Shown piece by piece: positions 1 to 53,076 of a stretch of DNA of 64,000 nucleotides. Both the position numbers and the translations under genes were made by a program. The number at the start of each line of letters is the position of its first letter. The first letter of the stretch is position 1. The stretch lies in assembly GCA_965153355.1 (NCBI GenBank), contig OZ231126.1:2046001-2110000 (forward strand), given 5' to 3'. The notes under the pieces were generated by a model. The model made no database searches and was not told where the DNA came from. It saw only the letters and a list, made by a program, of their open reading frames with translations. The DNA is from Flaccisagitta enflata. Lineage: Eukaryota.

Positions 1-42
1 CTCAATTCCACTTTTGCTTTTCTCGCTTATTTAACCTTGATT

Positions 43-2487
43 CCCGCGAAGCGGAGAAAAACATACGATGTGATTCTGATTTCCGAATGATGCTAGATTT
101 TTTTTCCTTTCACTCATTGCCTATTTAATTACTATTATTGAATGATACCCGATCCCGCGCAGCGGAGAAAATTGGCATATGGCAAAAAATGATAATAGTG
201 ATGAATGAAATAGCCATGAATTAAAACCCGCACAGCGGAGAAAAATTGAAAAATAATCAGAATTTTAATTTTTATTCTTTTTTTTGTTTCTCGAATAAAA
301 ATAAGATAGATTCATTCAATCTAACCAGTGATGTGACTCAAATATTCATTAAAATCAAACAAATGAAATAGCCTAACAAAATGAATTATGCATATCATAA
401 ATGCCAAATCCATAATTTTAGAATATTTTATTTTAATAACATTATTCAAGCTAAAATAAGACAAGATTTTGTATATCAAAAATCCTGCAAAATACTGCAT
501 ATTTAGCTGATGCCTACCCTTGTTTAAATGTCTAGACGGATGCCTAATTATTATTTCTGTTTTCATACCCGCTCGGCGGAGGTAGAATTATTGATTCTGT
601 TTTCATACCCGCTCGGCGGAGGTAGAATTATTGATTCTGTTTTCATACCCGCTCGGCGGAGGAAAATGCATTTTTGATTCTGTTTTCATACCCGCCCAGC
701 GGAGAAAAATGCATATTGTTTACTTCGGAAAATGTCGGATTAAGTTAGATATAACCTTTCCCACAAAGTGGAGGCATTAATAGGCACCTTACCCACAAGG
801 TGGAGGCATTAATAGGTACCCTTCCCACAAGGTGGAGAACTTAATAGTAACTATTCCCACAAGGTGGAGACATTAATATTTATTTAGCAACTGCCCATTA
901 TTGTACCCGCTATAGCGGAGGATTAAAACCATTAAAGCATGGGCGGATGCCCTAAACATTGCCCGCTAAGCGGAGGAAATTAGCTACTGGTAGCTTCGGC
1001 AGTATGCGCAAAAATTCCCCTAAGAAAGGGAGAGGTTCAATACCTTATGTTGACTAGGCTGAGGCCTAAGAATAGCCCGCTAGGCGGAGATAAAATACAT
1101 ATCCTTAGCTTCGGCAGAATGCGCAAATTTTTTGCTATGCTATAAAAAAAAAAAAAAAAAAAAAACTTTGCAACAATGTTAGGATCAATTAAAAATAATA
1201 GCGCATTATTAAAAATGATATGCATAATTCATCTTACCATAAACAGTATCATAAATTCTGAATAATATTACATAAACCCGTTGAACGGAGAAAACATAAT
1301 TGTGAGATTCAATTTCCTTTCTTAAGCCAAGAGCACCCAAGCTCACTCATGATTGAAGTTTTTTATTTTTAAAGAAAATCCTTAGTCATCAGAAGATACA
1401 GAAATGAAATCATAGAATAGCTACCAGCAAAATATCATTAAATTGTAATCAATACTAAAATCCCCGTAACGGATAAATGATTAATTATGAAAAATATTCA
1501 ATACTGGGCTAACTAATGGTTATTCAGTATGAATTGACTAAATCCCGCGAAGCGGAGAGTAAATGTTATGCCCATTACTATCTTTGACAGTATAGGAAAT
1601 TATTTTAATAACTCAAAATAACCATTAGTTGGCAGCTAGTAGAAAATTTTTTAAATGCTCAAACCCCAACAGGGAAGATATTGATACCCGCTAAGCGGAG
1701 GTAAAATCCATGATACACGTAGCATAAATTTAATATCAACACCCGCAAAGCGGAGAAATAATTTATGAGCATGAATCATGATTTTGATACTAATACCCGC
1801 GAAGCGGAGAAATATTCATGATGCATGAAACATGATACTTAATATTGATACCCGCGAAGCGGAGAGAAGATCATGATGCACGTAGCATAATACTTGATAC
1901 TGAAACCCGCAGAGCGGAGAGAAAAGAAATTAGTAATGCATAAAATGATACTTAATGCTAATACCCGCAAGCGGAGATAAATTCATGATACTTAATACTG
2001 AAACCCGTGAAGCGGGGAAGAAAATTCTAAAATGATTTTTTTTTATCTAAATAATTATACTGCAACTATTTAAAGAATTGCATGACATGATGCTTTATAC
2101 TAAATCCCAAAGATGGGAAGAAAAGCATGAAATTCTTTTATCCTTGGTATAAATTGCCTAAACCCGCGCAGCGGAGAATGAGATCAAAAATTTTTTTTAC
2201 TTTTGCTCATATGAATGATATTGAAACCCGCAAAGCGGAGAAACAAAAATTTTTTGATATTGAATCCCACGGAGCGGGGAAGAAAATCATGATGCACTAT
2301 GATTTTAATGATCATTGATGTTAAAAAATTGTCCCCGCGTAGCGGATGAAGAAAATCATGATGCACTATGATTCTAATGATCATTGATGTTAAAAAGTTG
2401 TTCCCGCGTAGCGGATGAAAAATGTCATGATGCAATATGATTTTAATGATGATTAATGTTTTAAAATGTTCCCCGCATAGCGGATGA
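43..2487 (+). repeat. Dispersed array of about 30 co-oriented mini-hairpin motifs (consensus CCCGC-N3-GCGGAG) in AT-rich, partly repeated spacers; may continue left of the window
   Basis: Copies read at about 43, 154, 227, 568, 608, 648, 691, 760, 792, 824, 856, 906, 962, 1076, 1277, 1462, 1544, 1687, 1742, 1796, 1851, 1906, 1964, 2004, 2106, 2163, 2227, 2266, 2333, 2403 and 2471. Local tandem blocks of 40 nt (568-690), 32 nt (760-870), ~55 nt (1687-2020) and ~69 nt (2266-2487). Confidence 0.93.
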
Positions 2488-2838
2488 AATAAATCAAAAA
2501 CCTATTTGTTAGCTTCGGCAGAATGCGCAAATTTTTTTTGATATGAGCAAAAACTTGAAGAATAGATCATGATTGACAAAGATTTTTTTTTAGAAAAATG
2601 TTAAGATAATACATGGCATCACGGAAATCAGAATTACATGAAATCACCCTCATAAAAGTCACTTTTTTTTCATTCATGATATGATAGTAATTGAGTTGAA
2701 CGCACCCGAAATATACATGAAAATAAGGAAACCGGATATGAGAAAGAAAATGCATTTAATAACATGATCATAACAAAAACAAATGAAACTTCCGCTACAT
2801 CGAGTTGTACAAAAATGTTTTGCTTTAAGTCGAGATGA

Positions 2839-3315
2839 GTGATTAAACTGTTTTGTTATTGTTTATGCACTATGTTTTGTTTACTCACAGAACAAATAAT
2901 TAAAGTGGCTGAATCTGTTGACACTACATCGATTGCTAGGCAAGCCGAGCAATTGGTAGAAAAAACCAAAGACGAACTTTTGCTAGAGTATAAGAGGCAA
3001 TTGTCTCAAAGTCAATTGAGAAATACGATCCATCAGTGCATAAATAGCAATTTGAGCGACAAAATCGAACTGATAAGAATCGAAAATCGTCATCTTAAGA
3101 CATTGAACAAAAATCTTCGCGAATTAGCCATCTCGAGTGAAGCAGCATTACAAAACAATACTCTTGACACTAGAATTAAAATACTGCGTGAATTAGTGAG
3201 AAATTGGCGTGAAAGCGTAACAACTTTGGAGGCGGCAAACACCGCTAACGACGCTCTTCGGCAACGGGCGGAAATCGAGGCGCTTGAATATCGACAAAGG
3301 CTTGAGGATATTTGA
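2839..3315 (+). CDS. Short predicted coiled-coil ORF (up to 158 aa; first ATG at 2872) directly upstream of the giant ORF
   Basis: Open frame with heptad-like E/L/R/Q-rich sequence (IELIRIENRHLKTLNKNLRELA; ANDALRQRAEIEALEYRQRLE). Its TGA (3313-3315) lies 2 nt before the next ATG (3318). Confidence 0.55.
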   Translation: MIKLFCYCLCTMFCLLTEQIIKVAESVDTTSIARQAEQLVEKTKDELLLEYKRQLSQSQLRNTIHQCINSNLSDKIELIRIENRHLKTLNKNLRELAISSEAALQNNTLDTRIKILRELVRNWRESVTTLEAANTANDALRQRAEIEALEYRQRLEDI

Positions 3316-3317
3316 GG

Positions 3318-6300
3318 ATGGAAAGGGACGGTATTAGAGGCGTGAGCTTGGAGTGTGGTGCTTGTGATGTCGTTGGCAGCCCGTTGGAGTCTGAATGGAG
3401 GTTGTTTTTGAATTGCCCTCATAGTGTGCACAAAGAATGTGCGGAAGGATGTGAGGGAGTCTGTCCCAAATGCGGATCCGCGTCGCCGTTCAGAATTGTC
3501 AATAGGGAGATTGTCACGTCCATCGAATTGGATAAGAGATTAAAGAAGGCGCTGAACAAGCACGAGACGAAAAAGAAGCATCTGATGGCGACGTTGGACC
3601 GTTCGGCGGGGGCATGGAGAAGTTTGGATCGCGTGATGAAATATCGCGTAGTGCAAGCGAGAGAGAAGCGGAAGTGGAGAATTAAGCAGAGGCTGCACAA
3701 CGAAAAGAAAGGGCGTAGATTGAATGACGCCGATGACGACGCCGAATCCGTCGGCACTTCCGGCGACGCCGAGGAATCCGCCGATAACGCCGCCGACGCC
3801 GCCAAATTAGGTGGCGAGAGTCGATCGGTGGAAGGCGAGGAAACGGGGGAGGAGAGAGACAAGCCATATCGAGGCGCGGAGACGCCGGATTCATCGGTCA
3901 TTCCTCCAATACCTGAGGAAGTGAGAAGAGAAGAGAAAGAAAGGCGTGACAAGGAAGAAATGGATAAAGCCTGGAAAGCGGTCAAAGAGGACATAATCAG
4001 AGGTTTGGGTGAAGATTTTGAAGGCGAGCCTGAAAAGGCAGCAGAGCTGTGTCTGTCCAACTTATTATTGGACGTCATTCAGTCGCATGAAATGCAGGAT
4101 GATTTGGCTCGCCAATGCGTTGGTTACCTAGACAACGTCACGGAGAATCAGGCGTTAGTGATGGAGTCGTTGTCCAAGACTCAACCGACGTTGTACAACG
4201 ACCTCATGGAGGCTCTTCCGGATGCTGAGGAAGACTTGAATGAGGCAGCGAGAATCATTTCTGAAATGAACAAGGAAAGAAATTATCAAAGGCACGCTCT
4301 TGAGCAACTTACAAAGTTCCAATCGACGCTGGAAATACGTCAAAGGGAGCAAAAAGAAGAAGATGAGGGCGTCGACAGGTCACCAAAGCCCCTTCAAGCC
4401 GTCCAAGAGACGATAGAACTGGGCAAAGAATTTGGGATCCATATCCAGACGATAAGGTCTGACGCCGCCGATCGCGTAGCCCTAGAAATGGAAAGAAGAG
4501 GAAGGGATTTGCCGGTTAATGCGTCAATCGTTGACATAATGACCATGTGTGACCTAAACAGAGAGATTCCTCCTCAGGGCAGAAGAGTTGACGTCTTCAA
4601 ATTCGACCGGGAAAAGCCCCCAAATTCCATCCCTGAATTGGTGAAGGAGGTGGAAGAATTAAAAAGGCAAAGAAACAGTTTTGCCTTGATGCTCAAAATG
4701 ACAGCCATTAGGCTTGAAATTTCAGAAAGGGGGATAAGAAACAGAGATAACACGCATGCAAAAATGGTTAGATTCCAAGAAGTGCGTCAAGAGCAGAACG
4801 AAGAAGTGCACATGGCCTTTGAAGTATTTATTTCCATGCTTCTTTCCGAGCTTTGCCGTGAAAGATTGATCCGGCAAGAGGCCCTCAAGATTTTGGAGGA
4901 GGTTCCCGAAAGAGCATCAGCCATGGTGGCCATGTTCAGGATGGACGGTCCACAAGATGACATGGGTGAAAAGAAAAAGATGACAATTCATCGAGATTCC
5001 ATGGCCTGTGACATCGATTTGGTGTCAAGAAAGTTGGCGACGGGGTTACCGCCTGAAGAAAAAGAAGAGAGGCTGGCGCAAATCAAAGATGGCATGACCC
5101 AGAAAATGAATCTGGTTTGGGCTGAGCCTCAGCCGGTGGACAAAAGATGGACCAAAGGTATGGCAGAAGCTCTATGGGAAGAGATGACCAATCCCGTACC
5201 GCAACTGGAATCCCTCGAAAGGAAAGAGGAGGAAGACAAAGGACCTTTGCCGCCAATAGTGCCGCTGTCCGATGAGAGGAGACAAGAGGCCCTGAACTTA
5301 GCAATCGCGGAAAGTGGAGGACCAAGATTGGGCCCTCATGATTCATACAAACCGCTTAGTCAGACAGAAAGAAGAGCGTTCATCAACGATCCATGGGTGC
5401 AAAAGATGAACAACGACTTCATGATGTGGAGCAACATCAATCTGCTCAAAATCCCAATTGATTACGAGGGGGTTAGAAAGGAGTGGGAGGATGCAGATTT
5501 GGAGACGGAGGAGGAAAAGGAAGAGAAGAAGAAGAATAAGAAAGGAAAGGAAGGAAAAAAGCAAAAGAGCAAGAAGGCCAAAGAAGGAGAAATGCTAACA
5601 ACAAAAGAAGAGTTGGAAGAAATGAAGAAGAGGGGAGGAGAAGACCAAGAAAAGACGGGTAAGGCGGGAATGATGGTCCAATGGACAAATCCCGACGGCT
5701 CATTGGAATTGCAATATTTCCCGCCCGAAGAAATTCCACGTCTGATAGAGGCCGAAAGAAGAGTAAATCAAAGAAAGGAGATTGAAAGGGAAATGAACGC
5801 CTTCTTTGGAGTCAAGAATTCTGACAGCGAAGATAGCAGTGAAGAAGATGAAAAATCCAAACCGCAAAGTTCACCGCCATCAAAAGCATCGCCCAGAGGC
5901 GCGAGTGGTAGTTCACCGAAGGCGATGTCTCTCCACACCCATTCAAGACAGCCAACACCGGGCAGAGGCCGTCCAGGTGCGTCTAGTTCCCCGTCAAACA
6001 TGGGAAAGACGTTCAGAGGCCCGAGGGAATTGACGTGCTGGCATTGTGGGATCAAAGGTCACCACATAAATGATTGCCCCACGATCAAGTGTTGGCGGTG
6101 CGGTGAAACAGGTCATCATCAAAAGGTCTGCCAGGCCCCGAAAACGACGAAGGAAATCTGGGATGGGGCCGACAAAGATGGCAAGAAAGAGAAGAAGGAT
6201 GACGACCAAGACAAGAAGAAAGATGGAAGTGGGCCGTCAATCTGTGCGGTAGAAATGGTGGAAATGGAAGGTCCTTCAGAAAATGAAGAGGAAGAAGAGA

Positions 6301-9300
6301 AGGAGCAGTTGGCTATGTTGGAGGAGGTTGAGTCCGACGACGATTGGATTAACCATCCACCTGGTCTTGCTTATCCCAGCTCTGAATCAGAAACCGAGAA
6401 TGATCTGATTGACAACAAGTCGATTGTGTTGGAAGAAGAGATGCAACAGAAGCTGAGCAAAAATCAGAAAAGAAAGCTCAGAGTGAAGAGGAAAAAAGAG
6501 TACAAAAAATCGCTTAGAGCAGCCTCTGATGGCACAAACACAATTGCAGCCCAGTCAGAGGAGCCAATTGCAGAAGCAAGCCCTGAAGGAGCAGAAGGTC
6601 ATTCAAAAGCTCCACCAACTCTTCCGTCAGAAGCACCGGCGACAAACAGCCAAGGGGCAACCTCAGACACATTGATCATGTCTGAGCGACAAAAGAAAGA
6701 TGAGCAAATCAAAGAAATGATAGCCATTGAGCCTAAAGGAGGAGATATGGTTTTTAAAGTAGTTGACAAGATGCTACTCAACCGTCTCTTCGAAAGCGTG
6801 CTGGAGGAGAATGTAAAGGAAATGGTGCTCAGCTTCCAGGGCCAATTCTTTCGTCAAGGCTACGAGTCCACCTCCAATGAGGGCATATTTGTCCCAGAAG
6901 CACAGATGACAATCCAGGAAGCCCTTGGATATCATTTTTTGATCTGGCATTGCGAAGATTGGATCGTTCAGAAATATGGGGAAAAACCCAAGTTGCGAAC
7001 TGAAGCAGAAATGCAAGACATCAATGCAAAGAAGATTTCTGCAATATGCAGAATGCTTCACTATGCACGAAGGTGCGCGAAATTGATGAAAATCAAAGGT
7101 GACATCAAATCAAACGAATCTCATGCAATCACCATGTGTGCTGTTAACGCCGGCAGTGATGATGAAATGGAGCACGAGGCATCTAAAGGACAAGAGGTGA
7201 TTGTCGATTCAGAAGAGGAGAGTGAAGTACCGGTGATCAAAGTCCTCGGGGGCGACGATGATGAAACCGACGCACCTCCGCGCATCATTGACGCTAGACC
7301 TCTGGATTGTCACAAAGTGTGCCAGGCTTACACATCAGCTCATGACAGTCTGATACCCGAGATAGCCGACAAAATGGAGCAAGGACCGCCCGATGACGAT
7401 TTGCAATTTGGGGATACAATCCAAAGTGAATATTTGAACAAAGGCGAAAGTAACCTTGGGGACAAAAAAAATGGCGGATTTTTGAAACCTTTCTTTTGAA
7501 CCATAACGCGATACAACGTAAGAAAAATGGATTAAACTTGGTGATGCCTGTAAAGCCCTTCAAAACATCTTTCATTTGAGTCGTGTCTGGTATCTGTAGC
7601 TTTATCCGATTAGAAATGGCATAGGTTTGAAGAAAAATATCACCAATTGGAAAAAGGGCAAATATTGTCTTTTTTTTCGATTAGCAATTTTTGTCTCAAC
7701 GTTTTTCTTAATAATGCAATTCAGAATTGCCACAGCTACTTGATATCCGTGAGCAAATTAAAGAGCTTTGAATTTTCTTCAAAATGGCGCCAAGAACGAA
7801 TTTGTTACTCAATGCGTTTAGTTTCTATGTTTCAACAAACAAAAACATGCAAATCCTAAAGTGAATTCTCAAATTCCAGACAACCTGTTTTCATCCCAAT
7901 GCCATTTCTAAACGAAAAAAGCTAGGACAAGCAGCAACGTCTCATTTGAAAGATCTTTCGCAGAGCTTCAAAATGGTCACCAATTTTTTATAGTTTTTCG
8001 CAATTTAAGATAGATAGAATTAGTTTTCCAAAATCCGCCATTTTTTATGTCCCCAAGGTTATCGAAATTGTATCCAGGTCTCAAACAGTCATCATTCTCT
8101 CGAGAGAACAAGGTCAGGGCAAAGTAGGCATGATCTCGTATGACAGCATGCAGCATCAAGACATGGTGAAGAATGGTGGCTGGTTGCACGACGAGAGTGA
8201 AATGGAAGAGCTAGAAAAGCAGATCTTATCGGGTGAGAAATCAGGATCAATCATGAAATTGCACAAAAGAATCGAAGGGACGGACAAAGTGGCCCTCGTC
8301 AAAGCTTTATGGTCACCAGGCAAAACAATCATACGACCAAGAAATCCGTCACCCGGGCTATCGCCTGTCGAATTCATCCATTACCTGCGCTGCCAAGGCA
8401 ATCAAGACGCGATTGTGGGGCAGGAAATCTCAGCGGCGTTCACACAGATTGATGGCAAAACCGTTGTTGAGCTTTCGGCGGCGAAAAGAAAACGTTCGCC
8501 ATCTCCATTCGAGAAAAACAAGAGGAAGGACAGCGACGTCAACATCGTGGGCGCCATCACCATCGACGACGATATCACCAGCGGTGACAACGACGAGAAT
8601 TTCATCCCAAACGTCCGCCTGGAAGAAGTTGAAGGGGATGAAGAGGAGGAGGAAAGGCGAGAAGAGGTGAATGAAGAGGCAATCGATCAAGTTGCGGAGC
8701 AGCAACCAGGCGCATCTGCAGCATCAAACACTTCATCTGCGGAGGAAACCCAAAACCAAACTCCGGCAGATGAAGGTCCCTCAGCAACGCCACTCACGGC
8801 AGAATCATTGGAAGTGGTGCGACCAAAGGCGTTGACAAAAAGCCAAGAAGAATTATTGGCAGAAATGGCAGTAATGGCGGGTAAATTGGAGAAAAAGAAC
8901 AAAGAAGTGGCCTGCCTCGTCAACAAGGTTAAAAAGCTTAAATGGGAGCTCAATCTTCGTTCACCCGTGGACAGATGGAAGGTGTTGAAGGGCAAATGGC
9001 CAAGAACCCCTTCGATGGAAATGAAAGCGGAAATTGTCGGAGTCCCCTTGCACATCTTGGAGCAAAACGAATTGCTGATGGAGTTGAATCAGTCGGAGGT
9101 GGCAGGAAGGGCGATGATATCCGGCGAAATCCGTCAAGCTGGCGAGACGATAACGGAAGCGGTAAATCGTCTCGGTCCAATGGGACTGAAAAATAGGAGA
9201 AAAGAATTACAAGCCAGCTCGGATTTGGAATGGAAAAAGTTAGTCCCCAAAACCTACGACGAGATCAAGGAAGAGGTTTTGGAGGCCGCGCGTGCGGAAG

Positions 9301-9497
9301 AGCAGCATTATCACTTCCGCGCGGAACGCATCGCAACACGCGCGAGAGAAAGATACCAGCCCGCGGAATGGTATTTTGGTCCTTCCTTCGGCGAGCTCTT
9401 GGAGCAGGAAGCCGAAAATAGAAGGCGAATCAACGCGGCGCGACAAGGTTCTTTCCAAGCGAATGTCACGCAATTGGACGACGACAAAAGTGGCTAA
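3318..9497 (+). CDS. Giant Gag-like/unknown protein (~1,856 aa after removing the MITE at 7453-8061): N-terminal RING-H2, coiled coils, acidic/basic tracts, two CCHC zinc knuckles; interrupted in this copy
   Basis: ORFs 3312-7499 and 8130-9497 share a frame. Deleting the MITE plus one TA gives ...NKGES|IEIVSRSQTVIILSREQGQGKVG-MISYD... with no stop. RING-H2 pattern C-x2-C-x16-C-x-H-x2-H-x2-C-x7-C-x2-C at ~3354-3473. CX2CX4HX4C twice (CWHCGIKGHHINDC, CWRCGETGHHQKVC) at ~6036-6131. Confidence 0.85.
7453..8059. mobile_element. Non-autonomous foldback MITE with TA target duplication (Tc1/mariner-type by TSD)
   Basis: Termini ACCTTGGGGACAAAAAAAATGGCGGATTTT / AAAATCCGCCATTTTTTATGTCCCCAAGGT, imperfect inverted similarity for roughly 200 bp inward, TA at 7451-7452 and 8060-8061. 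Confidence 0.92.
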
Positions 9498-10106
9498 AGA
9501 GACAATCTAAACAAATACGGACAATCCATGGAAATTGTCCGAATTGCAAATGTTTTGGAAAAACAAAATACCGTTGCTTTGATATTGTACGAGGTTGATG
9601 TTAGAAAAATAATCAAATTACGTGAACTGGTTTATGCGAGATGGAATTGAAAACGCGTATAAAACGTTCTACTTTTGCATGTTTGAAAATTCTGCAAGGC
9701 CAAGTAAAACCCGCATTGCTTTAAATCATGCTTAAAAATATCATGTTACTCTCGCATTAAATATTGAATTGCCAAAAGCAACCCATTGCATAATTTTTCT
9801 CGCCCGTGTAAGATACTATGATGGTCTAGTATTTGACGTCATATTCTATTGCCAGTGTTCTAAGAATTGCCATAAAATTGCCACTTCGCATTATTGATCA
9901 CTTAAACATTTTCATATTTTCTCTCAACTCAAATTCATGTTACATGTTCTTTTATATCAAAACAGGTTTCAGGAGAAAAAAATTGATAAGAAGAAAAGCT
10001 TCTTTTGCAAGCTCTTGGTTTGAACTCTTAAATAACAATTCGGAACATTCTAATCGAACATTTCGGAAGAAACATATTGAACATTTTCGATCAATAACCT
10101 GCGAGA

Positions 10107-11720
10107 ATGAGCGACGAAAGCGCCGGGAGGGGCGGTCAAAATGATCCGCCGAACTCTAGCGACGACGTCAACACGGCGACGAATTTCATGGCGCCATCGA
10201 TTGGCGCGATGATGCCGCTTCTACCGGGCGAAACAACTGCGCGCGCCAGGAGACGATCCGGCGCGTTGCACGTCGCGGAAACGATGATAAATATGTTTCC
10301 GCAGCCTCGGCGATCGCCGAGACACTCAAATGCGCCAAACCATCAAAATCAATCTGGCGTGAATTTAAACATTGGACAACAACCATCAGCAATGACGGAA
10401 GAAAATGTAAACATGGACTTGGCGTCTACAGATGTTTTCCAATCGGCAATGTCATCAGCTTCAACATCTCAAACGACAAATCCATCATCAATTCCACCAG
10501 AAACAGTTCAAACATCATCAATTCCATCAGCTGGAATAACATCATCAATTCCATCAGCTGGAATAACATCATCAATTCCATCAGCTGGAATTCCATCAGC
10601 AATTCCATCGACTGGAATTTTGTCGACTTTTCCATCAACACATAATCAAACGACAATATCATCAACGGGACATCAATCTGCAATACAATCAACAGAATTA
10701 TCCACGTCTCTTTCATCACATCATCAAAACGTGAATCCGTCAAACCGATCAAATGAAAACACTCACTGGTCTGAACTCACACCATCAATTCCATTCTCGA
10801 CTACGACTACGCCAATGAGCGGAATTCCATTGGCGATTCCATCATCATCTTCAAATCATGAATCGGCACCAATATCACAGAATGTCATGGACTTGACAAA
10901 AGCGCATGTTAATCCATCATCATCCGCGGCAGAATTTAACATGCCGTCATCATCAACAGTATCGATGATTACAACGCTGGGTACTCAAGGAATGGTCGGC
11001 AACGAGCTTGTCAGCAGCTGCCAAAGGAAATTGGCTTTAAATCAGGCCTTGATTAACACAAGCAATAGAAACAACGAAATTCAGTCGTCACCTTTGAGTA
11101 GTGAGGATGAAATGGAAACTTCGACGAGTGCATCGATAACGAGAAACAGATGTATTGATGGGGGTGAGGTCAGAGAAGGCTTGAATAAATTGCATATCGA
11201 CGAAGAATCGAATGACAGCCCGCTGGAAGATGAAAATGTAACAGCGGTTAAAAATCTGCTCGACTCAGAAAAAAGAAACGACGCATATGACCCAGAAAGG
11301 CCAGGCATGTCGTCAGAAGACGGCAGGGTCAGCGCAACAACACATCCCGTCCCAATTACCAATACCAGACGGAGTATGCTTGAAGACCGTCTCTCGGTCA
11401 TATACCCTGAGATAGGGGTGCCGCCGGGTACACAAAACGATGATAGTGCCATGACGGGTCAATTGATCGCTTATTATGAGGAAAATAAAAGGGACATAAA
11501 GAGATATCAAATTCCCTCATTCCCAAACCCAATTGACGCTCTGGTTGAAACCTTCACTACTCATCGTGAACACTACTCAGACGTGATTCAACGTCCTACC
11601 AACAAGAAAAATCGAGAATATTTGAAAAAAGTTCTGGTCGAGCCAGAATTGTTACCTGGCATGGAATCAAGAGCACTCAAGGCTGGAAAAAAGCAGGGCA
11701 CTGTCGGACCAATACTTTAG
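10107..11720 (+). CDS. Ser/Thr/Pro-rich, probably disordered ORF (537 aa as annotated); the last 7 codons come from an inserted transposon, so it is truncated
   Basis: Long intronless ATG-initiated frame with a 27-nt tandem repeat (SSIPSAGIT, ~10514-10620). A CACTGT transposon end starts at 11699 inside the frame. Confidence 0.75.
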   Translation: MSDESAGRGGQNDPPNSSDDVNTATNFMAPSIGAMMPLLPGETTARARRRSGALHVAETMINMFPQPRRSPRHSNAPNHQNQSGVNLNIGQQPSAMTEENVNMDLASTDVFQSAMSSASTSQTTNPSSIPPETVQTSSIPSAGITSSIPSAGITSSIPSAGIPSAIPSTGILSTFPSTHNQTTISSTGHQSAIQSTELSTSLSSHHQNVNPSNRSNENTHWSELTPSIPFSTTTTPMSGIPLAIPSSSSNHESAPISQNVMDLTKAHVNPSSSAAEFNMPSSSTVSMITTLGTQGMVGNELVSSCQRKLALNQALINTSNRNNEIQSSPLSSEDEMETSTSASITRNRCIDGGEVREGLNKLHIDEESNDSPLEDENVTAVKNLLDSEKRNDAYDPERPGMSSEDGRVSATTHPVPITNTRRSMLEDRLSVIYPEIGVPPGTQNDDSAMTGQLIAYYEENKRDIKRYQIPSFPNPIDALVETFTTHREHYSDVIQRPTNKKNREYLKKVLVEPELLPGMESRALKAGKKQGTVGPIL

Positions 11721-16072: not shown

Positions 16073-17509
16073 CCGCTGGCCCATGGTTGTAAGAGCTAAG
16101 AGCGGTAAATTTTTTTCCCCTTTTTAGTCGCGGACACTTGACTCTACACCTTGCCGTGCCGTTGTCGGTTGGTAGGTCGGTTGGTCGGTATACCGCGGTA
16201 GGTCACATTTCTAAATTACGAACGGTTTTTGCATTACTGCTCCTGCCCAACCGTCCGCGACTGGATTGCCGTGTATCCGGCCTTGTTTGTGTACATGCAC
16301 TGTGCTTTTAAAACAATTCTGAGTGAAAAGTCATATAGCTGTGGGTTTTTCTGCACTTTTGAGCAGTATTGGGGTGGAAAAGCATGTAACTAGCAAAAAC
16401 AAAATCATTCCCCAAGTGTTTTTTGAGTAACCTCCAAAATCAGAAAAAAATAGACCCAATTTCAATGAAGATTCTTCTGAGATGAGTTGACTAAATTTTT
16501 GATTCTATAAAGTTAATCTAACAGGGTGTGCAAAATTATCTGGACTTGGCAATTACTTTTCTTAAAAACCCTGTAGAAAAAATGATTTTTGAATGCATGA
16601 AGGGTAGATATAAAAAAAAGTGTCCTTTTAGCATTAAAAACCAAAATTCACAGAAAATAAAAAAGTCAGAAACAAAATTTTTTGGGTAAATTTGACTCAC
16701 TTAAAACACTCCTTTAAAAGATTCATAAAAAAAAACCTGAAATCTTGTTGTTAGTTTTTCTTGCCCTTCAGGCTTAGTTTATTTGCTTTTTTGAGCTCCA
16801 TTGATGTTGATTTAACTTACCTCCCTCAGCATAATGTGTGTTAAGCATAGAAAGTCACTATGGAGTGGTTACTAATACAAAAATCTATGATTTTGCACAA
16901 TGGAATTGGCTTGGGCTTTTTGTATAACATCTGCTAAAATCTGATCTAGGGCGAGTATTGACACAATTTTTTTTTTCAAGAAAACCATTTAGGCAGTATA
17001 TCACTTTGAGCAAGGTTTCAAGTTTGAAAGAAGTGTGTAACATTGTAAAAATAGTGTGTCAATATTGCAACTTTATTCAGATTGAGCAATGGACATCAGT
17101 GGGAGTATGGCCAATAGCAGCATACCATCTTCCAAGTTTCAGCCAATCACAGCTTCCCCAGGGATCCCTGCTGTTTCCCTCCTATTCAAGTAGGGTGAAA
17201 GCACGCACAAAAGGGCAATCTAGTAGGGCCCAAAGTAGTTAAGGATTTCAAATTAACAAGTTAATAGTTAACTAACTACTTTTTTACCTAGTTAACTACT
17301 AAAGTAGTTAAAACCAGCTTAGATCAATATCTAGCCTATTATCTTTAGTAAGCCACTTACTTTAAAGATAAACAGTCGATTTTTTCAGTCTTGTTGAGTT
17401 TTATTAATCTATCATGATGGCGCTAAGCAAATGTGATCAACAACAAGTTCAAGTAGCAAAAAAAATTATGTTTGAAGATAACATCAACGTCAAATCAAAT
17501 CAGTCAAAC

Positions 17510-20500
17510 CTACATTCGAATACAACCAAACAAGGAGCAAATCGATTCAGGACATAAGTCAAAGCTTTTTCAAGTGGTTTCTAAGAAAGCAAAGATTATC
17601 GAGACTTTTGTCAAAGAGAGAAGCTCTCACTTTCGAAACAAACAGTCCGGCCGCACTAAAGGCTCTTTCTTCCTCAACAGAAGTCGGAGGAAGAGTTGAC
17701 GCTGCTTTTTAAACTCTTTCGAAACACAGAGGTCGTTGACCAGTTGCTAAAAAAAATGGCAAATTCATGTTTGATTTTGACAAGAATATCCGACGGAGAT
17801 GAAAATGATGATTTGTTTTGGTCAGCACCCAAATCACGACTCTGGAGGAAATCTCTCAACTCTTCAGCTTTCGATTTTTTTGGAGCCGGCTCAGTTGGTT
17901 CATCAGAGTCAGGCAAAGCGCTATCCTCGTTGGATCCTTGAGACCAAAAGAGACGAACATAAATGTCTCTGATTTTTTTGATAATCTCACTCTTGGGCAG
18001 ATATTTCAAGATGGCATTATCTGCATCCTTGTTGGGTGAAAGATAGAGAAGCACACCCGAGATAAGCCCGTTGCGTCGCTCCATGAGGTGTTGGTGAAGA
18101 ATGTCTAGCATTGCTTGTCCTAAGCCCGACTCATTCTCCTCCAGCTTTTTCAGCATGAACTCAATGACATGATCAGCATCAAGTAGCGAGTAATCGTTTG
18201 AGGCGATTTGAGTAGCACCAATCTCGATTGTTTCAAGCACATCAATCAAGTCTCCTACAATTTTGAGCTCGTCCTCGCTCAGAAAAAGATGTTGCAACGC
18301 AAGGTTGATTAGCGCTTTTTGAATTTCCGGTGAGAGTAAGTGAAAGCGGCGAAACATGGCGAGCAACATATGCCATCGAGTCTTTGTGTCCATGATCAGA
18401 TTCAACTCCTGTCCATGAGTAGGGGGTCATGGTTGGAAAAGGGGTCATTAAACCATCAATTGGACAAAGTTTGTTTGATAATCTAACTTTCCTGACTTCA
18501 TCAGCACTCATTTTGAAGGGCTAATTGCTGAAATGTCCAAATCCTGTTCATTTGTTCATAGACCAAGGTCATGATTGAAAAACGCGCCCTCTGAGAGAAA
18601 GGCGTCACATCCACTGGTTAAAAGTCACTTGTTTTGAAGCCTCTGTGGCTAGATGTCAAGTGTTCCAGTTTTTTTTCTCCCCAATTTGACACTTCCCTTA
18701 CAGGTTAAGGTTGAAAATCTCTTTGATGATAAATTTCTCCTCACAACCACTGCAAGCTTTGCCCAAACCTCCCCAAATTCAATGTTTTTAGTTGTAGCGT
18801 GGATCTGGCAGATATAGAGCTGGGATTTGGACATATGTGCTTTATCAAGTTTTATAGCATGATAATTTCTTAGTAGGGATGTCAATCACAATCAGGAACT
18901 GGTCATATATGGACTTTTCAATCTTCTATGAAAATTTAAGTCACTTCAAGACCCCCTAAATACTTATCCTTAAATTGACCTTACAGCTTTAAAATGGAGC
19001 TTCCAGGCTCAAATTTGAAGGTTAGCTAGGGGGTCATGGTTGGAGAAGGGGTCATTAAACCATCAATTGGACAAAGTTTGTTTGATAATCTAACTTTCCT
19101 GACTTCATCAGCACTCATTTTGAAGGGCTAATTGCTGAAATGTCCAAATCCTGTTCATTTGTTCATAGACCAAGGTCATGATTGAAAAACGCGCCCTCTG
19201 AGAGAAAGGCGTCACATCCACTGGTTAAAAGTCACTTGTTTTGAAGCCTCTGTGGCTAGATGTCAAGTGTTCCAGTTTTTTTTCTCCCCAATTTGACACT
19301 TCCCTTACAGGTTAAGGTTGAAAATCTCTCTTTGATGATAAATTTCTCCTCACAACCACTGCAAGCTTTGCCCAAACCTCCCCAAATTCAATGTTTTTAG
19401 TTGTAGCGTGGATCTGGCAGATATAGAGCTGGGATTTGGACATATGTGCTTTATCAAGTTTTATAGCATGATAATTTCTTAGTAGGGATGTCAATCACAA
19501 TCAGGAACTGGTCATATATGGACTTTTCAATCTTCTATGAAAATTTAAGTCACTTCAAGACCCCCTAAATACTTATCCTTAAATTGACCTTACAGCTTTA
19601 AAATGGAGCTTCCAGGCTCAAATTTGAAGGTTAGCTAGGGGGTCATGGTTGGAAAAGGGGTCATTAAACCATCAATTGGACAAAGTTTGTTTGATAATCT
19701 AACTTTCCTGACTTCATCAGCACTCATTTTGAAGGGCTAATTGCTGAAATGTCCAAATCCTGTTCATTTGTTCATAGACCAAGGTCATGATTGAAAAACG
19801 CGCCCTCTGAGAGAAAGGCGTCACATCCACTGGTTAAAAGTCACTTGTTTTGAAGCCTCTGTGGCTAGATGTCAAGTGTTCCAGTTTTTTTTCTCCCCAA
19901 TTTGACACTTCCCTTACAGGTTAAGGTTGAAAATCTCTCTTTGATGATAAATTTCTCCTCACAACCACTGCAAGCTTTGCCCAAACCTCCCCAAATTCAA
20001 TGTTTTTAGTTGTAGCGTGGATCTGGCAGATATAGAGCTGGGATTTGGACATATGTGCTTTATCAAGTTTTATAGCATGATAATTTCTTAGTAGGGATGT
20101 CAATCACAATCAGGAACTGGTCATATATGGACTTTTCAATCTTCTATGAAAATTTAAGTCACTTCAAGACCCCCTACCATGAGTTTCTTTCACATTTTTC
20201 TGTAGCGTGTCATTTGGAACGGGACTTTGGCGAAAAGCTTTGGAACCAGTCCGGACCTTTTTGACAACTGGTTGAAATCGCCGTTTGAGAACTGGTGGCG
20301 TTTCCGTCTCCATCTCACTTTCGTCATCATCCTCATCTGAACCGTCCTCAGAGTCACTGGGCGGATTTTCCTGTGAGGAAGTGTCGTAGAGAAGATCGCA
20401 AACGGCGAGATGTGCTCCATGTGAAAGACAAAGTTGTTGTTCAACTTCTAGCAGGCGACCAACTTTTTTCATGACTGCAGCACCGTCAGTCACAACGCAA

Positions 20501-21030
20501 AAGATGTGTCGCTTCCTGTCAAGTCCGAAAAGTGCGAGTCTTTCATCAAGAAGTTCCACGGCTTTTTCAGCTGGAAGAGAACCTGTGACACAAACCATTC
20601 CAAGCGACAACATGATTCTCATCATGTAGGTTGATGCTCATGAAGAGTCGATTCTTTATGGAGGTGTACTCATCGAGCGACACACTGAATCTTTCTCCGT
20701 TTTCAGCTCTCTGTGCAAGTTCTTTTTTAAGATCTTCCTTGACAGAGGCCGCGTGATGGAACACAATGTTTTTCACGCCATTCCCGCTTTCAGGCACTTT
20801 GTATCCTCTCGCTTTGAGACCAGCTACAATGTTTTTGCTTTTTGCGATTGTTTTGTAAGGAAGTCTGTTGACAGCACAAAGACGAGAAAGGATCAAACTT
20901 AAATCTTCTTTTTTCGGTTGAAAATGCGAAGATATGGTTGGCTGAGTTGCGGTCACAGTCGATGGCTTTTTTTGCTCGATTTCCACGGAAATTGAATGAG
21001 CTTTATCTAGATGATAACGCAAGGAGCTCG
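17510..21030 (-). pseudogene. hAT transposase pseudogene (frameshifts, internal insertion, 5' end lost)
   Basis: In order: BED-finger tail TSSLRYHLDKAH, FSVSLDEYTS, VVTDGAAVM, CLSHGAHL (CxxH), DTKTRW, and hand-translated C-terminal PPTSVEEERAFSAAG...LDNLCFL dimerisation motif. Confidence 0.93.
18420..20176. mobile_element. Three head-to-tail ~540-bp TAGGGGGTC...GACCCCCTA units joined by an identical ~68-bp linker, bounded by one 7-bp TSD
   Basis: Units start at 18420, 19027 and 19636 and are nearly identical. CCATGAG at 18413-18419 and 20177-20183; removal restores the transposase frame VKETHGQELNLIMDTKTRW. Confidence 0.9.
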
Positions 21031-21031
21031 T

Positions 21032-21640
21032 GAATTGTCCAAGCAATTGGAGGCTGTACAATCCAAGGCGACAGCACTAGTCATGGGACTCAAGAAGCTG
21101 AACTCGGAAGAAAGGCGGAAGAAGCTTGGACTGATGACGTTGGAACAAAGGAGGGAAAGGGGTGATCTGATCGAGGTATTTAAGATCCTCCATGGCCTGA
21201 CAAGGATAGACCCCGGGCACTTCTGGGAAGTCAGAAATGCAAGGGGGGTCCAAGATTGGTCAAGGCATTGGCGGAGAATGGACGGAAGCAGAGGCAATCC
21301 TTCTTCTCGTATAGAGTTATTCAAAAATGGAATCTCTTGGGAGCGGAACTTAAAACTGCGCCCTCCCTGGAAAGCTTCAAGAGACGGTTGGATGAGAGGC
21401 TGCTTGGCAGCAATTAGCTGACGGATGGGTGAATCAAAAGTGGTAGAAATTGCATCCTGGGAAGTGAGAGGCCGCTAGGTCTGGCCCTCACAGAACAGGT
21501 GGAAGTGGGTGACTTGTAAATAGGTAACCTTGGAATAGTGAGAGAGCCGCTTTGGCCCTCACAAAAATGATTGCTGGTGCTATCCTGGTGGCACCTCCTA
21601 CCCTTGTCGTTGATGGATGTTGGTGATTTTCATCGGCCGT
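21032..21640 (+). mobile_element. 3' fragment of a CR1-clade LINE (ORF2 C-terminus plus probable 3' UTR); boundaries approximate
   Basis: LEAVQSKATALVMGLKKLNSEERRKKLGLMTLEQRRERGDLIEVFKILHG and, after a frameshift, FFSYRVIQKWNLL: the typical CR1 post-RT motifs. Confidence 0.85.
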
Positions 21641-22470
21641 TAACTACTTCGGGCCCTACAATCTAGTACTAAATTTGATCATGACAGTTTGTCTTTAAGA
21701 TTAATAAACACCTTGAATCCCCTCTCCGGGGAACTTGAACTTTTTATGATGGAAAGAGAACAGGGTCATCTTTCATATATATCAGTAAGAAATTCCGCGG
21801 TGAGGGGATTCAACCCCAACCATATAAATGTTTTTAAAAAAGCGCTCCAAAATTGGACAAACCGTAACTAACGTCACTTCAAATAAGTAGTAAGAACCAA
21901 TTTTTTTTTTTCTCTAGTTTGTTTGCCGTTCCTTCCTCTTTCATTTGGTACCTTAAAACCCGCAAAGCTCTTTCTAGTTTTTCTGCCAGAGGGAATTTAC
22001 TGAAACAAGTTTTGCTCCCAAAAATCCTCTTAAAAACCGCGGTTGATCAATTTTAATATCATATTACTATGAAAATAGACACTTTTTTCCTCGAGTAAGG
22101 GCTCATTCCTTCCTCAAATTACATACACTTTTGGAAATTAACAAAAAAAACGCAAAAAAATGATTTAGATTCACCCTCTTTCAAAACTTACGACATTTGT
22201 TAATTACAATGTGTTTTGTTACCTATTTTCTGGATAAAATAAAATCCTGTCAAAATCAAAATCTTTGCTGCAAATCATTCAGCTCCCATAGTGACAAGGG
22301 ATTTAGAAAAGACCTACAATCAATTTTAGTTTCTAGTATGATTAATTGAGGTAGTCTGGCTTGAATTTCAAAGACCTGGGTTACTTCTAAGTATGGTTTT
22401 CCCTTTCTGGTACAAGTCCGGATAATTTTGCACACCCTGCACCACGTAATCTGAGGTGAGATAAAAACCC

Positions 22471-47140: not shown

Positions 47141-48172
47141 TATAAGTTACGCCCACGAGTTTCAACTGGCACTGTCTATGAGCGTCTATCTGACTGACGA
47201 CTTGTGGTGAAAGAAAGTTGGCCGATTGGAAAATAGGAAGGCGATCGTCTCGTTTATTCCATAAAAAGTTCAACAACTGAAGAGAGGGGGAAAAATGAAA
47301 GGGAAAGTGGGCATTAATTGTGATCAGCAAACGCAAAAGATAACATGAAATCGAGATAGGACACAATAAAGGACAGAAACAGCACATGACAACATGTTCA
47401 TCTTCTTCAGAGCCCATGCCACCTGATAATACCTGCCCCTGCCCCGGCCCATCCCATTAAATTCATCCATATCATCCCTATAGCAAGCTGATCGGGCAAG
47501 CGATAAAAACCATACTAAAATCCGGCGATAAAAATGCAAAAGGGCAAAAGACAAAATAACAGACCGGAGGACAAAATAAAAAACAACGATAATAAAAGCA
47601 AACACGCGTCTATAAAACTTACTTTTAGGCCCACTTTCGTTGGTTTCAACCCACAGTCTGTCGAAGTCAAATTAACGTTAATTGTCCGTTCATTAGTTTA
47701 TCTGCAATAAAAAGATGAGAGATTATTGAAATTAGTGAATTCCAAGGGCGCATTCAAACGATCACGAAAAATCAATCAATCACTTTAAGAAGCAATGCCG
47801 CAAATAAATAAAATCAATCAATCCAAAAATTGGATGATACGAAAGACGAGATACGTATGTTCGCCTACGTAATAAAAACAAATGGCACAAAATACAAGGC
47901 GCAACCATATGGTTACCCATCTAGCGTTCAATATAAAAAATGGCGAGAAACAAAAGACGCGGCATTGAATAATCGAAGAAGAGAAAAAGCCAAAAGCACG
48001 CAAAAGAGACAAAAGCACACATACCTAAGGACGGACGGACATACATTTCTAACATTCTGCCCCATTTTTGGAATTTCACGAATTTCAAAAATCCGACATC
48101 AAGTTTCCAGTCGGGGAAACCCTACTAAAAAACCGATACTACCTTCCTTAAAAAAAAATTTACATAGACACA
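47141..48172 (-). repeat. 3' LTR (~1.03 kb) of the left copy
   Basis: Minus strand reads GGGGGGAGGGGCGGGGGTT (PPT) then TGTGTCTATGTAA; similarity to the right copy stops at ...GGGCGTAACTTATA. Confidence 0.72.
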
Positions 48173-48634
48173 AACCCCCGCCCCTCCCCCCCCGTCCACC
48201 GCCTCTTACATCCCCACCCTAACTATCAACAGATCGACGACTGCACGAATGATGATTCCGTCCGGAAAGGATCACCAGCAATTTGCAACGATCAAACAAT
48301 GACGACGCGGATGGAGACGAGGCGGCGACGAGAGGTTGAGGCGCCCGGTCTGAAAAAAAGTTAAAGGGAAGGGGGGGGAAAGGGGAACGGCCCATGGAGC
48401 ACTCCAAGGCCTGGGATTTGACTTGAGAGTGGAAAATGATAAAGACACATTGTAACATGTCATACGAAAGTATTTATTCGTAATAATGACTAAAAAGACC
48501 ATGTCTAAAACAAACACAACAAATTTACATGTTCCATGGAACCAAACAAAACAAGACAAAATAAATAAGTTACTAACTATATATAAAAACGAATCTGTAA
48601 GGGAAAAACAAATTAGTAAGTATCATGGAACGAC

Positions 48635-51357: not shown

Positions 51358-51573
51358 ATAGACAGAGCGAATGAATCAGTGTTTTGTGATGTGTGAGTGG
51401 AAATGGACAACATAATTAACAAGAGGAAAGATGAAAGCATGGATAATCAGAACCAAATATGAATAATAACAACTCTTTGTAAATATAACAAGTCAGAGAT
51501 ATCAATCACTCATATCTAGTTACTAATGGACAGGCCCATGCGCCTTTTTCTCTCTCTCAAAACTTAGCGTTTT

Positions 51574-53066: not shown

Positions 53067-53076
53067 NNNNNNNNNN
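53067..53076. other. Assembly gap (10 N)
   Basis: nnnnnnnnnn in the sequence; indel density looks higher on both sides. Confidence 1.

What the first reader, a model, noticed from the sequence alone, without database searches (positions are those of the whole stretch)
3318..9497. Two annotated ORFs are one giant RING-H2 + double zinc-knuckle protein split by a recent MITE
Seen: removing 7453-8061 (MITE plus one TA, 609 nt) fuses the 1395-aa and 455-aa ORFs with no stop, and the remaining 5.5 kb has no other lesion, so it was intact until recently. Known: RING-H2 domains are usually E3 ubiquitin ligases. Inference: an N-terminal E3-type RING joined to Gag-type knuckles ~900 aa downstream, with ~900 aa more after them, is an unusual architecture that could couple RNA binding to ubiquitylation or counter-defence. 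Short hydrophobic motifs ICAV, MCAV and VGAI, each followed by an acidic tract, might be polyprotein cleavage sites (speculative).
Basis: partly seen in the sequence, partly recalled or inferred. Interest (0 to 1): 0.72.

Follow-up and report, generated by a model that had tools for sequence, protein, structure and literature searches.

The report
RING accessory gene of giant retrotransposon
The long gene is not a host gene but an extra RING-finger gene carried in front of gag-pol by a 26-kb LTR retrotransposon family in a marine animal genome; related RING genes ride in several other retrotransposons of the same genome, which points to a shared accessory gene, perhaps a ubiquitin ligase that helps the elements against their host.

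Summary
A 607-nt TA-flanked MITE interrupts one ORF; 9 of 9 other copies spanning the site lack it and 4 of 10 are uninterrupted. The ORF is the extra 5' gene of a 26-kb Ty3/gypsy LTR retrotransposon (321-nt LTRs, 4-nt TSD, gag-TGA-pol). The window copy is also cut off inside gag. The ORF is under purifying selection (dN/dS 0.14, like pol). 7 of 9 sister families carry such an ORF, 5 starting with RING-H2. A homologous RING-helical gene lies behind pol in a very distant gypsy-like lineage. The knuckles are a late addition (2 of 10 proteins). This RING lacks the usual E2-contact Ile and linchpin Arg, which shorter relatives keep, so ligase activity here is uncertain. The cleavage-site idea gains moderate support. 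Best reading: a trans-acting RING/coiled-coil accessory polyprotein exchanged among giant gypsy elements. No description found in 10 literature searches. New variant of a known kind; function untested.

The parts
1..2838 (+). 5' leader of the retrotransposon, with 32-55-nt tandem repeats; the 5' LTR lies just outside the window at G000:C1:2044364-2044685
   Evidence: 96% identity to full-length copy C2b over the first 9.1 kb of the element; LTR place; repeats seen in copy C2b
2839..3315 (+). ORF0, 158 codons stop to stop, coiled-coil-like; its stop lies 2 nt before the ORF1 ATG; acceptor-like site near 2890
   Evidence: dN/dS 0.11-0.14; similar ORF abuts ORF1 in families F65 (ATGA overlap), F56, F51 (-28% identity); no Pfam hit
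3318..7452 (+). ORF1, 5' piece (codons 1-1378)
   Evidence: 98.9% identical to uninterrupted copy L042
3354..3473 (+). RING-H2 finger, C13 C16 C33 H35 H38 C41 C49 C52
   Evidence: 7 ligands invariant in 6 families; family profile hits RNF4 E 9e-10, RNF126, EL5 in PDB; pLDDT 76-85; Foldseek EL5 RING-H2 prob 0.95, rmsd 1.9 over 50 columns but E 1.3
4185..4877 (+). conserved helical/coiled domain (about residues 290-520)
   Evidence: leave-one-out HMM E 1e-12 to 1e-26 for 7 of 8 members; shared with lineage-2 RING ORFs
6036..6131 (+). two CCHC zinc knuckles (907-920, 925-938)
   Evidence: exact motif; homologue P0002 passes the Pfam zf-CCHC cut-off, E 2e-8
6240..6251 (+). ICAV, candidate site for the element's protease
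   Evidence: top hit of a matrix built from pol junctions; ISAI in P0002
6675..7112 (+). helical domain A (about residues 1120-1265), no known fold
   Evidence: pLDDT 68-92 by blocks of ten; conserved in P0002, F65, F56, P0065
7134..7145 (+). MCAV, candidate protease site
   Evidence: aligned with INAI, INAI, ICSI, ICSI, IGAI in five relatives; not in the matrix top 6
7453..8059 (.). MITE, 607 nt, 35-nt TIRs, TA duplication; interrupts ORF1
8062..9497 (+). ORF1, 3' piece, with alpha/beta domain B and the C-terminal domain
   Evidence: 98.5% identical to L042; model
8547..8558 (+). VGAI, candidate protease site
   Evidence: rank 3; VNAI in P0002
8841..9494 (+). conserved C-terminal helical domain (E-[TS]-Y-x-x-A-x-x-R-L-G motif)
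   Evidence: invariant G, E, RLG, G, R in six families; 26 hits among 1.84 billion representatives
9940..9966 (+). pyrimidine tract and CAG/G, splice-acceptor-like site upstream of gag
   Evidence: similar site 40-140 nt before the gag ATG in 6 of 6 ORF1-bearing families looked at; not shown by reads
10107..11684 (+). 5' part of gag; the copy is cut off here by another repeat
   Evidence: similarity to other copies ends at 11684

Best explanation
Shown: ORF1 is an accessory gene of a giant, env-less Ty3/gypsy LTR retrotransposon (LTR, leader, ORF0, ORF1, gag, TGA, pol, LTR; 26 kb), kept by selection on the element; the window copy is a dead, MITE-split, 3'-truncated copy. Its conserved core is RING-H2, a helical/coiled domain and a C-terminal helical domain; an RG-rich tract or, in this family, two knuckles sit between them. 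Inferred mechanism: ORF1 is read from unspliced RNA, coupled to ORF0 by stop-restart, while gag-pol comes from a spliced RNA with UGA readthrough. The module descends from a RING E3 ligase that gypsy elements swap and that acts in trans on host factors, most likely those that silence or destroy element RNA or particles. In this family the protein has grown into a polyprotein that binds element RNA and is cut by the element's protease after the knuckles and after domains A and B; its RING is now more likely a folded interaction module than a canonical E2-activating ligase. Identity about 0.95; the mechanism as a whole about 0.45.
For: Two full elements with identical LTRs, TSD, PBS-like and PPT-like ends; four LTR pairs about 26 kb apart; pol order PR-RT-RH-IN, nearest solved RT is Ty3. 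dN/dS 0.136 pooled over three disjoint pairs, 0.08 in the RING, pol 0.10-0.14. Extra ORF in 7 of 9 sister families, RING in 5. Homologous RING ORFs behind pol in a lineage whose RT is 22-25% identical: hhalign probability 99.3 to the N half, 83.6 to the C-terminal domain, at most 0.5 to gag; a gene that works on either side of gag-pol in unrelated lineages is unlikely to be a capsid part. Those RINGs and F41, F42, P0024 keep Ile, Pro and linchpin Arg (residues as described in PMC12103069). TGA-C at 11 of 12 gag/pol junctions, including the CARYYA, CGG and CUA contexts reviewed in PMC3542737. Motif test: 4 sites against 0.34 in shuffles for this protein and for P0002; Ty1 protease has Val/Ile at P2 and P2' (PMC6952103).
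Against: No activity, expression or cleavage is shown. Only 2 reads among 12.2 million records of one polyA run lie on the stretch, so splicing and stop-restart are untested. The RING here has Ala for the Ile and Gly for the linchpin Arg; 5 of 8 RINGs compared are degenerate this way, and families F51 and F50 lost the RING. The motif matrix was built after I saw the motifs; with the acidic-tract filter only 3 of 12 proteins exceeded shuffles, and the short ORFs have no such site. F41 and F42 ORF1 share only the RING detectably (helical HMM E 0.94 and no hit). Models are low-confidence overall (pTM 0.25 and 0.31).
Confidence: 0.55

Rival explanations
1. ORF1 is a second structural polyprotein (matrix/nucleocapsid helper) that co-assembles with Gag so that a 26-kb RNA can be packaged; the RING is only a zinc scaffold.
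For: Knuckles or RG-rich tracts, and protease-like sites, appear mainly in the large ORF1s; large-element families form one clade, SH-aLRT 95 in a quick tree; retroviral-type proteases act mostly inside particles (general knowledge); degenerate E2 surface.
Against: No similarity to the family's own gag N-terminus or capsid region (hhalign probability 4.2 or less); homologues sit behind pol in a distant lineage, without RG tract or sites.
Confidence: 0.25
2. One reading: an active RNA-guided E3 ligase in which the knuckles bring the RING to RNA-bound targets.
For: Both domains are real and conserved between this protein and P0002 at 36-39% identity; RING dN/dS 0.08; if the first cut is at ICAV, RING and knuckles stay on one fragment.
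Against: Knuckles in only 2 of 10 proteins; E2-contact residues missing in exactly these two RINGs (P0002 keeps a Lys at the linchpin place).
Confidence: 0.15
3. ORF1 is a captured host gene or passenger without benefit to the element.
For: Intronless RING ORFs with this module occur at loci whose context I did not resolve (L104, L105, L106).
Against: Purifying selection as strong as on pol; kept across families with 41-65% RT identity and diverged along with them; the three loci resolved or matched to each other (L107-L109) belong to a retroelement family.
Confidence: 0.05

Closest known systems
Burro/GYPSM1 giant gypsy elements of planarians (PMC6431247, passages read)
   Same: Animal gypsy-like LTR elements with about 25 kb internal region; extra domains tied to ubiquitination (AIR1 described as RING Zn-finger protein, Smc-like coil, MATH); an upstream accessory ORF in Dugesia tigrina.
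   Different: Burro has one 4,900-5,100-aa polyprotein starting with Gag and knuckles, with env homology, BIR, BCL2 and ankyrin motifs, thousands of copies, and LTR-inclusive size above 30 kb. Here the RING ORF is separate and upstream of gag, LTRs are 321 nt, gag-pol is split by TGA, no env-like segment was seen, about 11 copies. No sequence comparison with Burro was possible.
Ogre elements of plants (PMC6431247, passages read)
   Same: [quoted passage not shown]
   Different: Ogre size comes from 1.9-6.5-kb LTRs and an 11-13-kb internal region; plant lineage; no RING reported in the passages read.
Shared accessory ORFs of bdelloid LTR elements and Terminons (PMC5408684, abstract and first part of Results read)
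   Same: Non-env accessory ORFs (GDSL, DEDDy, coiled-coil) exchanged between distant retroelements; a GDSL-like ORF also follows the RING ORF in lineage 2 here (E 0.015).
   Different: Those ORFs lie 3' of pol and the part read names no RING type; they are a few hundred residues, not 1,100-2,200.
RING plus coiled-coil E3 ligases (TRIM-like; viral RING proteins)
   Same: N-terminal RING followed by long helices; ESM Atlas nearest clusters are viral RING proteins at 0.86 or less, a lead only.
   Different: No B-box seen, no homology outside the RING, E2-contact residues degenerate in this family. Baculovirus IE2/PE38 likeness is recalled, not tested.

Membership tests
Ty3/gypsy LTR retrotransposon | Direct LTRs with target-site duplication, PBS-like and PPT-like ends | tested here: met
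   321-323-nt identical LTRs AGT..ACT, 4-nt TSD (CTGT; TAAC), TGGTGACCC after the 5' LTR, AGTAGAGGGGGAG before the 3' LTR; the priming tRNA was not identified
Ty3/gypsy LTR retrotransposon | pol order PR-RT-RNase H-IN | tested here: met
   RVP E 0.015, RVT_1 8e-13, RT_RNaseH 3e-10, rve 9e-7 in that order; nearest solved sequences include Ty3 Gag-Pol, E 2e-14
Ty3/gypsy LTR retrotransposon | gag with capsid domain upstream of pol | tested here: met
   Retrotrans_gag E 5e-5 in sister family F42, which aligns to this gag at E 5e-20; no direct Pfam hit in this gag
Named gypsy clade (Burro, Tor, Mag, errantivirus) | RT groups with reference members in a tree | not testable with these tools
   No reference sequences could be fetched; all 19 RT relatives found are unnamed ENA proteins
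Env-bearing element (errantivirus or Burro type) | Envelope ORF with signal peptide and membrane anchor | tested here: not met
   ORF1 best 19-residue hydropathy 1.01; no plus-strand ORF above 119 codons 3' of pol in two full copies
RING-H2 domain | C3H2C3 ligands with RING spacing and fold | tested here: met
   single-sequence Pfam score below cut-off
Canonical RING E3 ligase | E2-contact Ile in loop 1, Pro and linchpin Arg in loop 2 | tested here: not met
   CGAC and CPKCG: Pro only (residues per PMC12103069). Met in F41, F42, P0024 and L102-L109
Canonical RING E3 ligase | Ubiquitin transfer activity | not testable with these tools
   needs a bench assay
Gag polyprotein (ORF1 as a second Gag) | Capsid domain or homology to the element's gag | tested here: inconclusive
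   No profile match to own gag regions and no capsid among fold hits, but the models are weak and domains were not folded singly
TA-targeting (Tc1/mariner-type) MITE | Short TIR element, TA duplication, high copy number, no ORF | tested here: met
   the partner transposase was not sought

The most novel reading that the evidence does not exclude
Giant Ty3/gypsy elements of this animal share a mobile family of RING E3 ligase genes, placed 5' of gag in one lineage and 3' of pol in another, as a virus-like counter-defence against host silencing; in the largest families the gene has grown into a second, protease-processed, RNA-binding polyprotein that helps a 26-kb genome replicate.
Probability: 0.35. 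Interest if true: 0.8.

Novelty: new variant of a known kind. Interest (0 to 1): 0.62.

Why it matters
Animal LTR elements above 20 kb are rare in print (the review read names Burro only), and their extra genes have no tested function. Here a graded series exists in one genome: no extra ORF (10.5-12 kb), 640-780-aa canonical RING ORFs (about 15 kb), and 1,100-2,200-aa ORFs (19-28 kb), plus the same module in an unrelated lineage. That makes two questions directly testable: whether retrotransposons encode their own ubiquitin ligases, and how they grow past the usual size limit. The MITE split itself is ordinary.

Tried and rejected
Host gene: rejected, it lies inside LTR elements. Env: no hydrophobic segment. 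Duplicate of gag: no profile match. Fold searches of both halves found nothing clear outside the RING: no Foldseek PDB hit at E 0.001, best wide Z 6.3, generic three-helix bundles Z up to 9.6, one viral hit at E 5e-4 with rmsd 48, disregarded; domains were not folded singly, so this shows no new fold. ESM Atlas gave no usable hit for domain A. A helical-domain profile search among longer proteins returned only P0001. No RNA holder listed. The reads laid gave no splice joints; one metatranscriptome contig shows the 609-nt skip at depth 2.8 and may be DNA. The 607/609-nt tandem at 18.4-20.2 kb is unrelated to the MITE. Three look-ups in earlier findings returned nothing. The careful RT tree did not finish; the quick tree has a very long outgroup and its root is not usable. 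Literature: 10 searches; none listed a paper on this family; Repbase, most subscription journals and supplements were not seen and may hold such elements.

Full report
1. Observation. The insert is 607 nt (7453-8059) with 35-nt terminal inverted repeats (2 mismatches) and TA on both sides. The ORF pieces on either side are in one frame and stop-free, read with an X at the break. The insert belongs to a large family: all 40 scored candidates of 4537 match at 94-100%, and 17 of 19 fetched copies show TA at both ends. Ten other copies of the ORF were mapped: 9 span the site and none has the insert; 4 are full-length and uninterrupted, 3 frameshifted, 3 truncated. An unnamed public protein of 1856 aa is 97% identical.

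2. What it is. Comparing copies with their flanks gave two complete elements of 26,007 and 26,083 nt with identical LTRs, 4-nt target duplications, a PBS-like TGGTGACCC and a purine tract; four LTR pairs lie about 26 kb apart in the genome (36 of 36 candidates scored). The layout is LTR, about 4 kb of leader, ORF0, ORF1 (the finding, 1857 aa), a 0.6-kb gap, gag (2149-2193 codons), one TGA, pol (1704 codons), 3 kb without a long ORF, LTR. Pol has PR, RT, RNase H, IN in Ty3/gypsy order, and Ty3 is among the nearest solved RTs, at only E 2e-14. A dUTPase-like segment between PR and RT is my reading by eye, not a call result. The window copy starts 1.6 kb before the window and ends inside gag at about 11684; no pol or 3' LTR was found nearby. 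It is dead with or without the MITE. The host is an unnamed animal with a 794-Mb assembly in 9 contigs; marine is inferred from the run labels.

3. Selection. ORF1 dN/dS is 0.136 pooled over three disjoint pairs of copies; 0.08 in the RING, 0.086 in the helical region, 0.05 in domain A, 0.094 in the C-terminal domain, but 0.38 in the knuckle stretch (3 synonymous, 5 other changes: few) and 0.56 in residues 61-200. Pol gives 0.10-0.14, gag 0.16-0.27, ORF0 0.11-0.14. Close pairs that include broken copies give 0.46-0.59.

4. Relatives. From 98 RT matches in the genome (97 of 844 candidates scored) I read 9 families at 39-65% RT identity. Seven carry an extra ORF before gag: F65, F56 (1531 codons, 22.3-kb element), F43 (1114, 19.2 kb), F42 (641, 14.8 kb) and F41 (781) begin with a RING; F51 (2186, about 26 kb) and F50 (2101, 27.6 kb) have no RING but share the helical and C-terminal domains; F40 (10.5 kb) and F39 (12 kb) have no extra ORF. 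Seven RING ligands are invariant in six families, F41 and F42 pass the Pfam RING cut-off, and the family profile finds 85 solved sequences at E 0.01 or better, the 60 shown led by RNF4 at 9e-10. Outside this genome, P0002 is a full-length homologue at 36-39% identity with RING and both knuckles, and P0024 (876 aa) joins a canonical RING to the C-terminal domain. The C-terminal profile finds only 26 proteins among 1.84 billion representatives; the ten clusters looked up carry no names. Knuckles occur in 2 of these 10 proteins; most others have an RG-rich tract in the middle (by eye). F41 and F42 share only the RING detectably.

5. A second lineage. Of 12 further RING loci fetched, two are F42-like with gag behind them, three have an unrelated C-terminal RING, one is a broken copy, and six are intronless 590-705-codon ORFs with a canonical RING-H2; five of the six hit the ORF1 helical profile at E 1e-7 to 1e-13, far above 100 shuffled and 5 reversed controls (21.5-46.2 bits against at most 5.9). 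As a group they match the ORF1 N half with probability 99.3 and the C-terminal domain with 83.6, and gag not at all. At L107 and L108 the ORF lies directly behind pol of a gypsy-like element whose RT is 22-25% identical to the first lineage and reads YADN; a GDSL-like ORF and several paralogous ORFs follow. The context of L104-L106 was not resolved.

6. How it most likely works. Shown: it is an accessory gene under selection, exchanged or inherited between distant lineages and tolerant of position. Inferred: gag-pol is made from a spliced RNA, since an acceptor-like site precedes the gag ATG in 6 of 6 ORF1-bearing families looked at; pol comes by readthrough, since 11 of 12 junctions read TGA-C, including the CARYYA, CGG and CUA contexts in PMC3542737 (passages read); ORF1 is reached by stop-restart from ORF0 (TGA-GG-ATG here, ATGA in F65; mechanism as in the same paper). 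None of this was seen in reads: one polyA run gave 2 reads among 12.2 million records, about 6% of the run. The short relatives keep the loop-1 Ile, the Pro and the linchpin Arg described in PMC12103069 (passages read), so the module most likely began as an E3 ligase acting in trans. This protein has CGAC and CPKCG, and 5 of 8 RINGs compared are degenerate in this way, so canonical ligase activity here is doubtful although the fold is kept. The three motifs fall in predicted linkers, after the knuckles, domain A and domain B. MCAV aligns with similar motifs in five relatives. A matrix from 18 pol junctions ranks ICAV first and VGAI third, with 4 acidic-tract sites against 0.34 in shuffles; the same holds for P0002, but only 3 of 12 proteins exceed shuffles under that filter, and a plain pattern gave 7 sites in 15 proteins against about 1.3 expected, none in the short ORFs. 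Both tests were designed after seeing the motifs. Ty1 protease sites have Val or Ile at P2 and P2' (PMC6952103, passages read). I put processing by the element's protease at about 0.55, and a counter-silencing role at about 0.4; the target is unknown.

7. Known and new. It meets the Ty3/gypsy tests; no named clade could be tested. Closest in kind are Burro and Ogre (PMC6431247, passages read) and the shared accessory ORFs of bdelloid elements (PMC5408684, abstract and first part of Results). Passages of PMC13524379, PMC4402516, PMC2774666 and PMC12460157, and the first quarter of PMC6338049, showed no RING accessory ORF. Ten searches listed no description of this family; Repbase, most subscription journals and supplements were not seen.

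8. Verdict. Observation confirmed; interpretation partly supported. The MITE split is ordinary; the element clade and its mobile RING gene are the find. New variant of a known kind; interest 0.62.

Noticed in passing
L116+L108 and L114+L107 (G000:C7:15969274-15999273; C9:59322765-59352764): Second giant gypsy-like lineage: RT only 22-25% identical to the others, YADN in place of the usual YXDD, TGA-CGG gag/pol junction, then RING ORF, GDSL-like ORF and several paralogous 210-220-aa ORFs; two copies match over about 27 kb; ends not found.
   Followed up: partly
L105:3920-7180 (-): 1087-codon Gln-rich ORF behind a RING ORF, with two Cys clusters that look like CXXC fingers by eye; no Pfam hit.
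   Followed up: no
L106:2567-3898 (-): 444-codon ORF with a signal-like N-terminus and a hydrophobic stretch, downstream of a RING ORF; no Pfam hit.
   Followed up: no
G000:C6:17941035-17949305, C7:20311415-20319685, C4:70164915-70170527: Three copies on different contigs have no codon difference in ORF1 where they overlap; two share the same frameshifts; the C6 copy lacks both LTRs. Recent spread of a broken copy, conversion or an assembly matter.
   Followed up: partly
L081 (family F50, G000:C5:65421001-65461000, -): 27.6-kb element with two more long ORFs (700 and 1303 codons) before ORF1, the second overlapping ORF1 in another frame.
   Followed up: no
L070-L071 and L094: ORF1 of family F65 is also interrupted by insertions: a repeat in one copy, a LINE-like element with a PHD-like ORF in another.
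   Followed up: no
L043-L044 (copy C2b): Gag of 2,000-2,700 aa in the large families, mostly coiled and low-complexity, with a non-CCHC C-terminal finger; a 65-nt A run lies 3' of pol.
   Followed up: partly
window 16522-22439: Broken transposase-like ORFs on the minus strand (hAT-like by eye; no such Pfam hit) between 27-nt inverted repeats, with a 607/609-nt internal triplication at 18420-20235 unrelated to the MITE.
   Followed up: partly
window 47263-58332: Large imperfect inverted duplication (87-97%) holding integrase-like fragments, BEL/Pao-like by eye; no Pfam hit at E 0.05.
   Followed up: no
L110-L112: Three ORFs with a coiled region and a C-terminal RING-H2 ending in EEFPPL, unrelated to ORF1.
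   Followed up: no
L036 (G000:C2:8437700-8441234): An unrelated gypsy-like gag and pol start about 2 kb after the 3' LTR of copy C2a.
   Followed up: no
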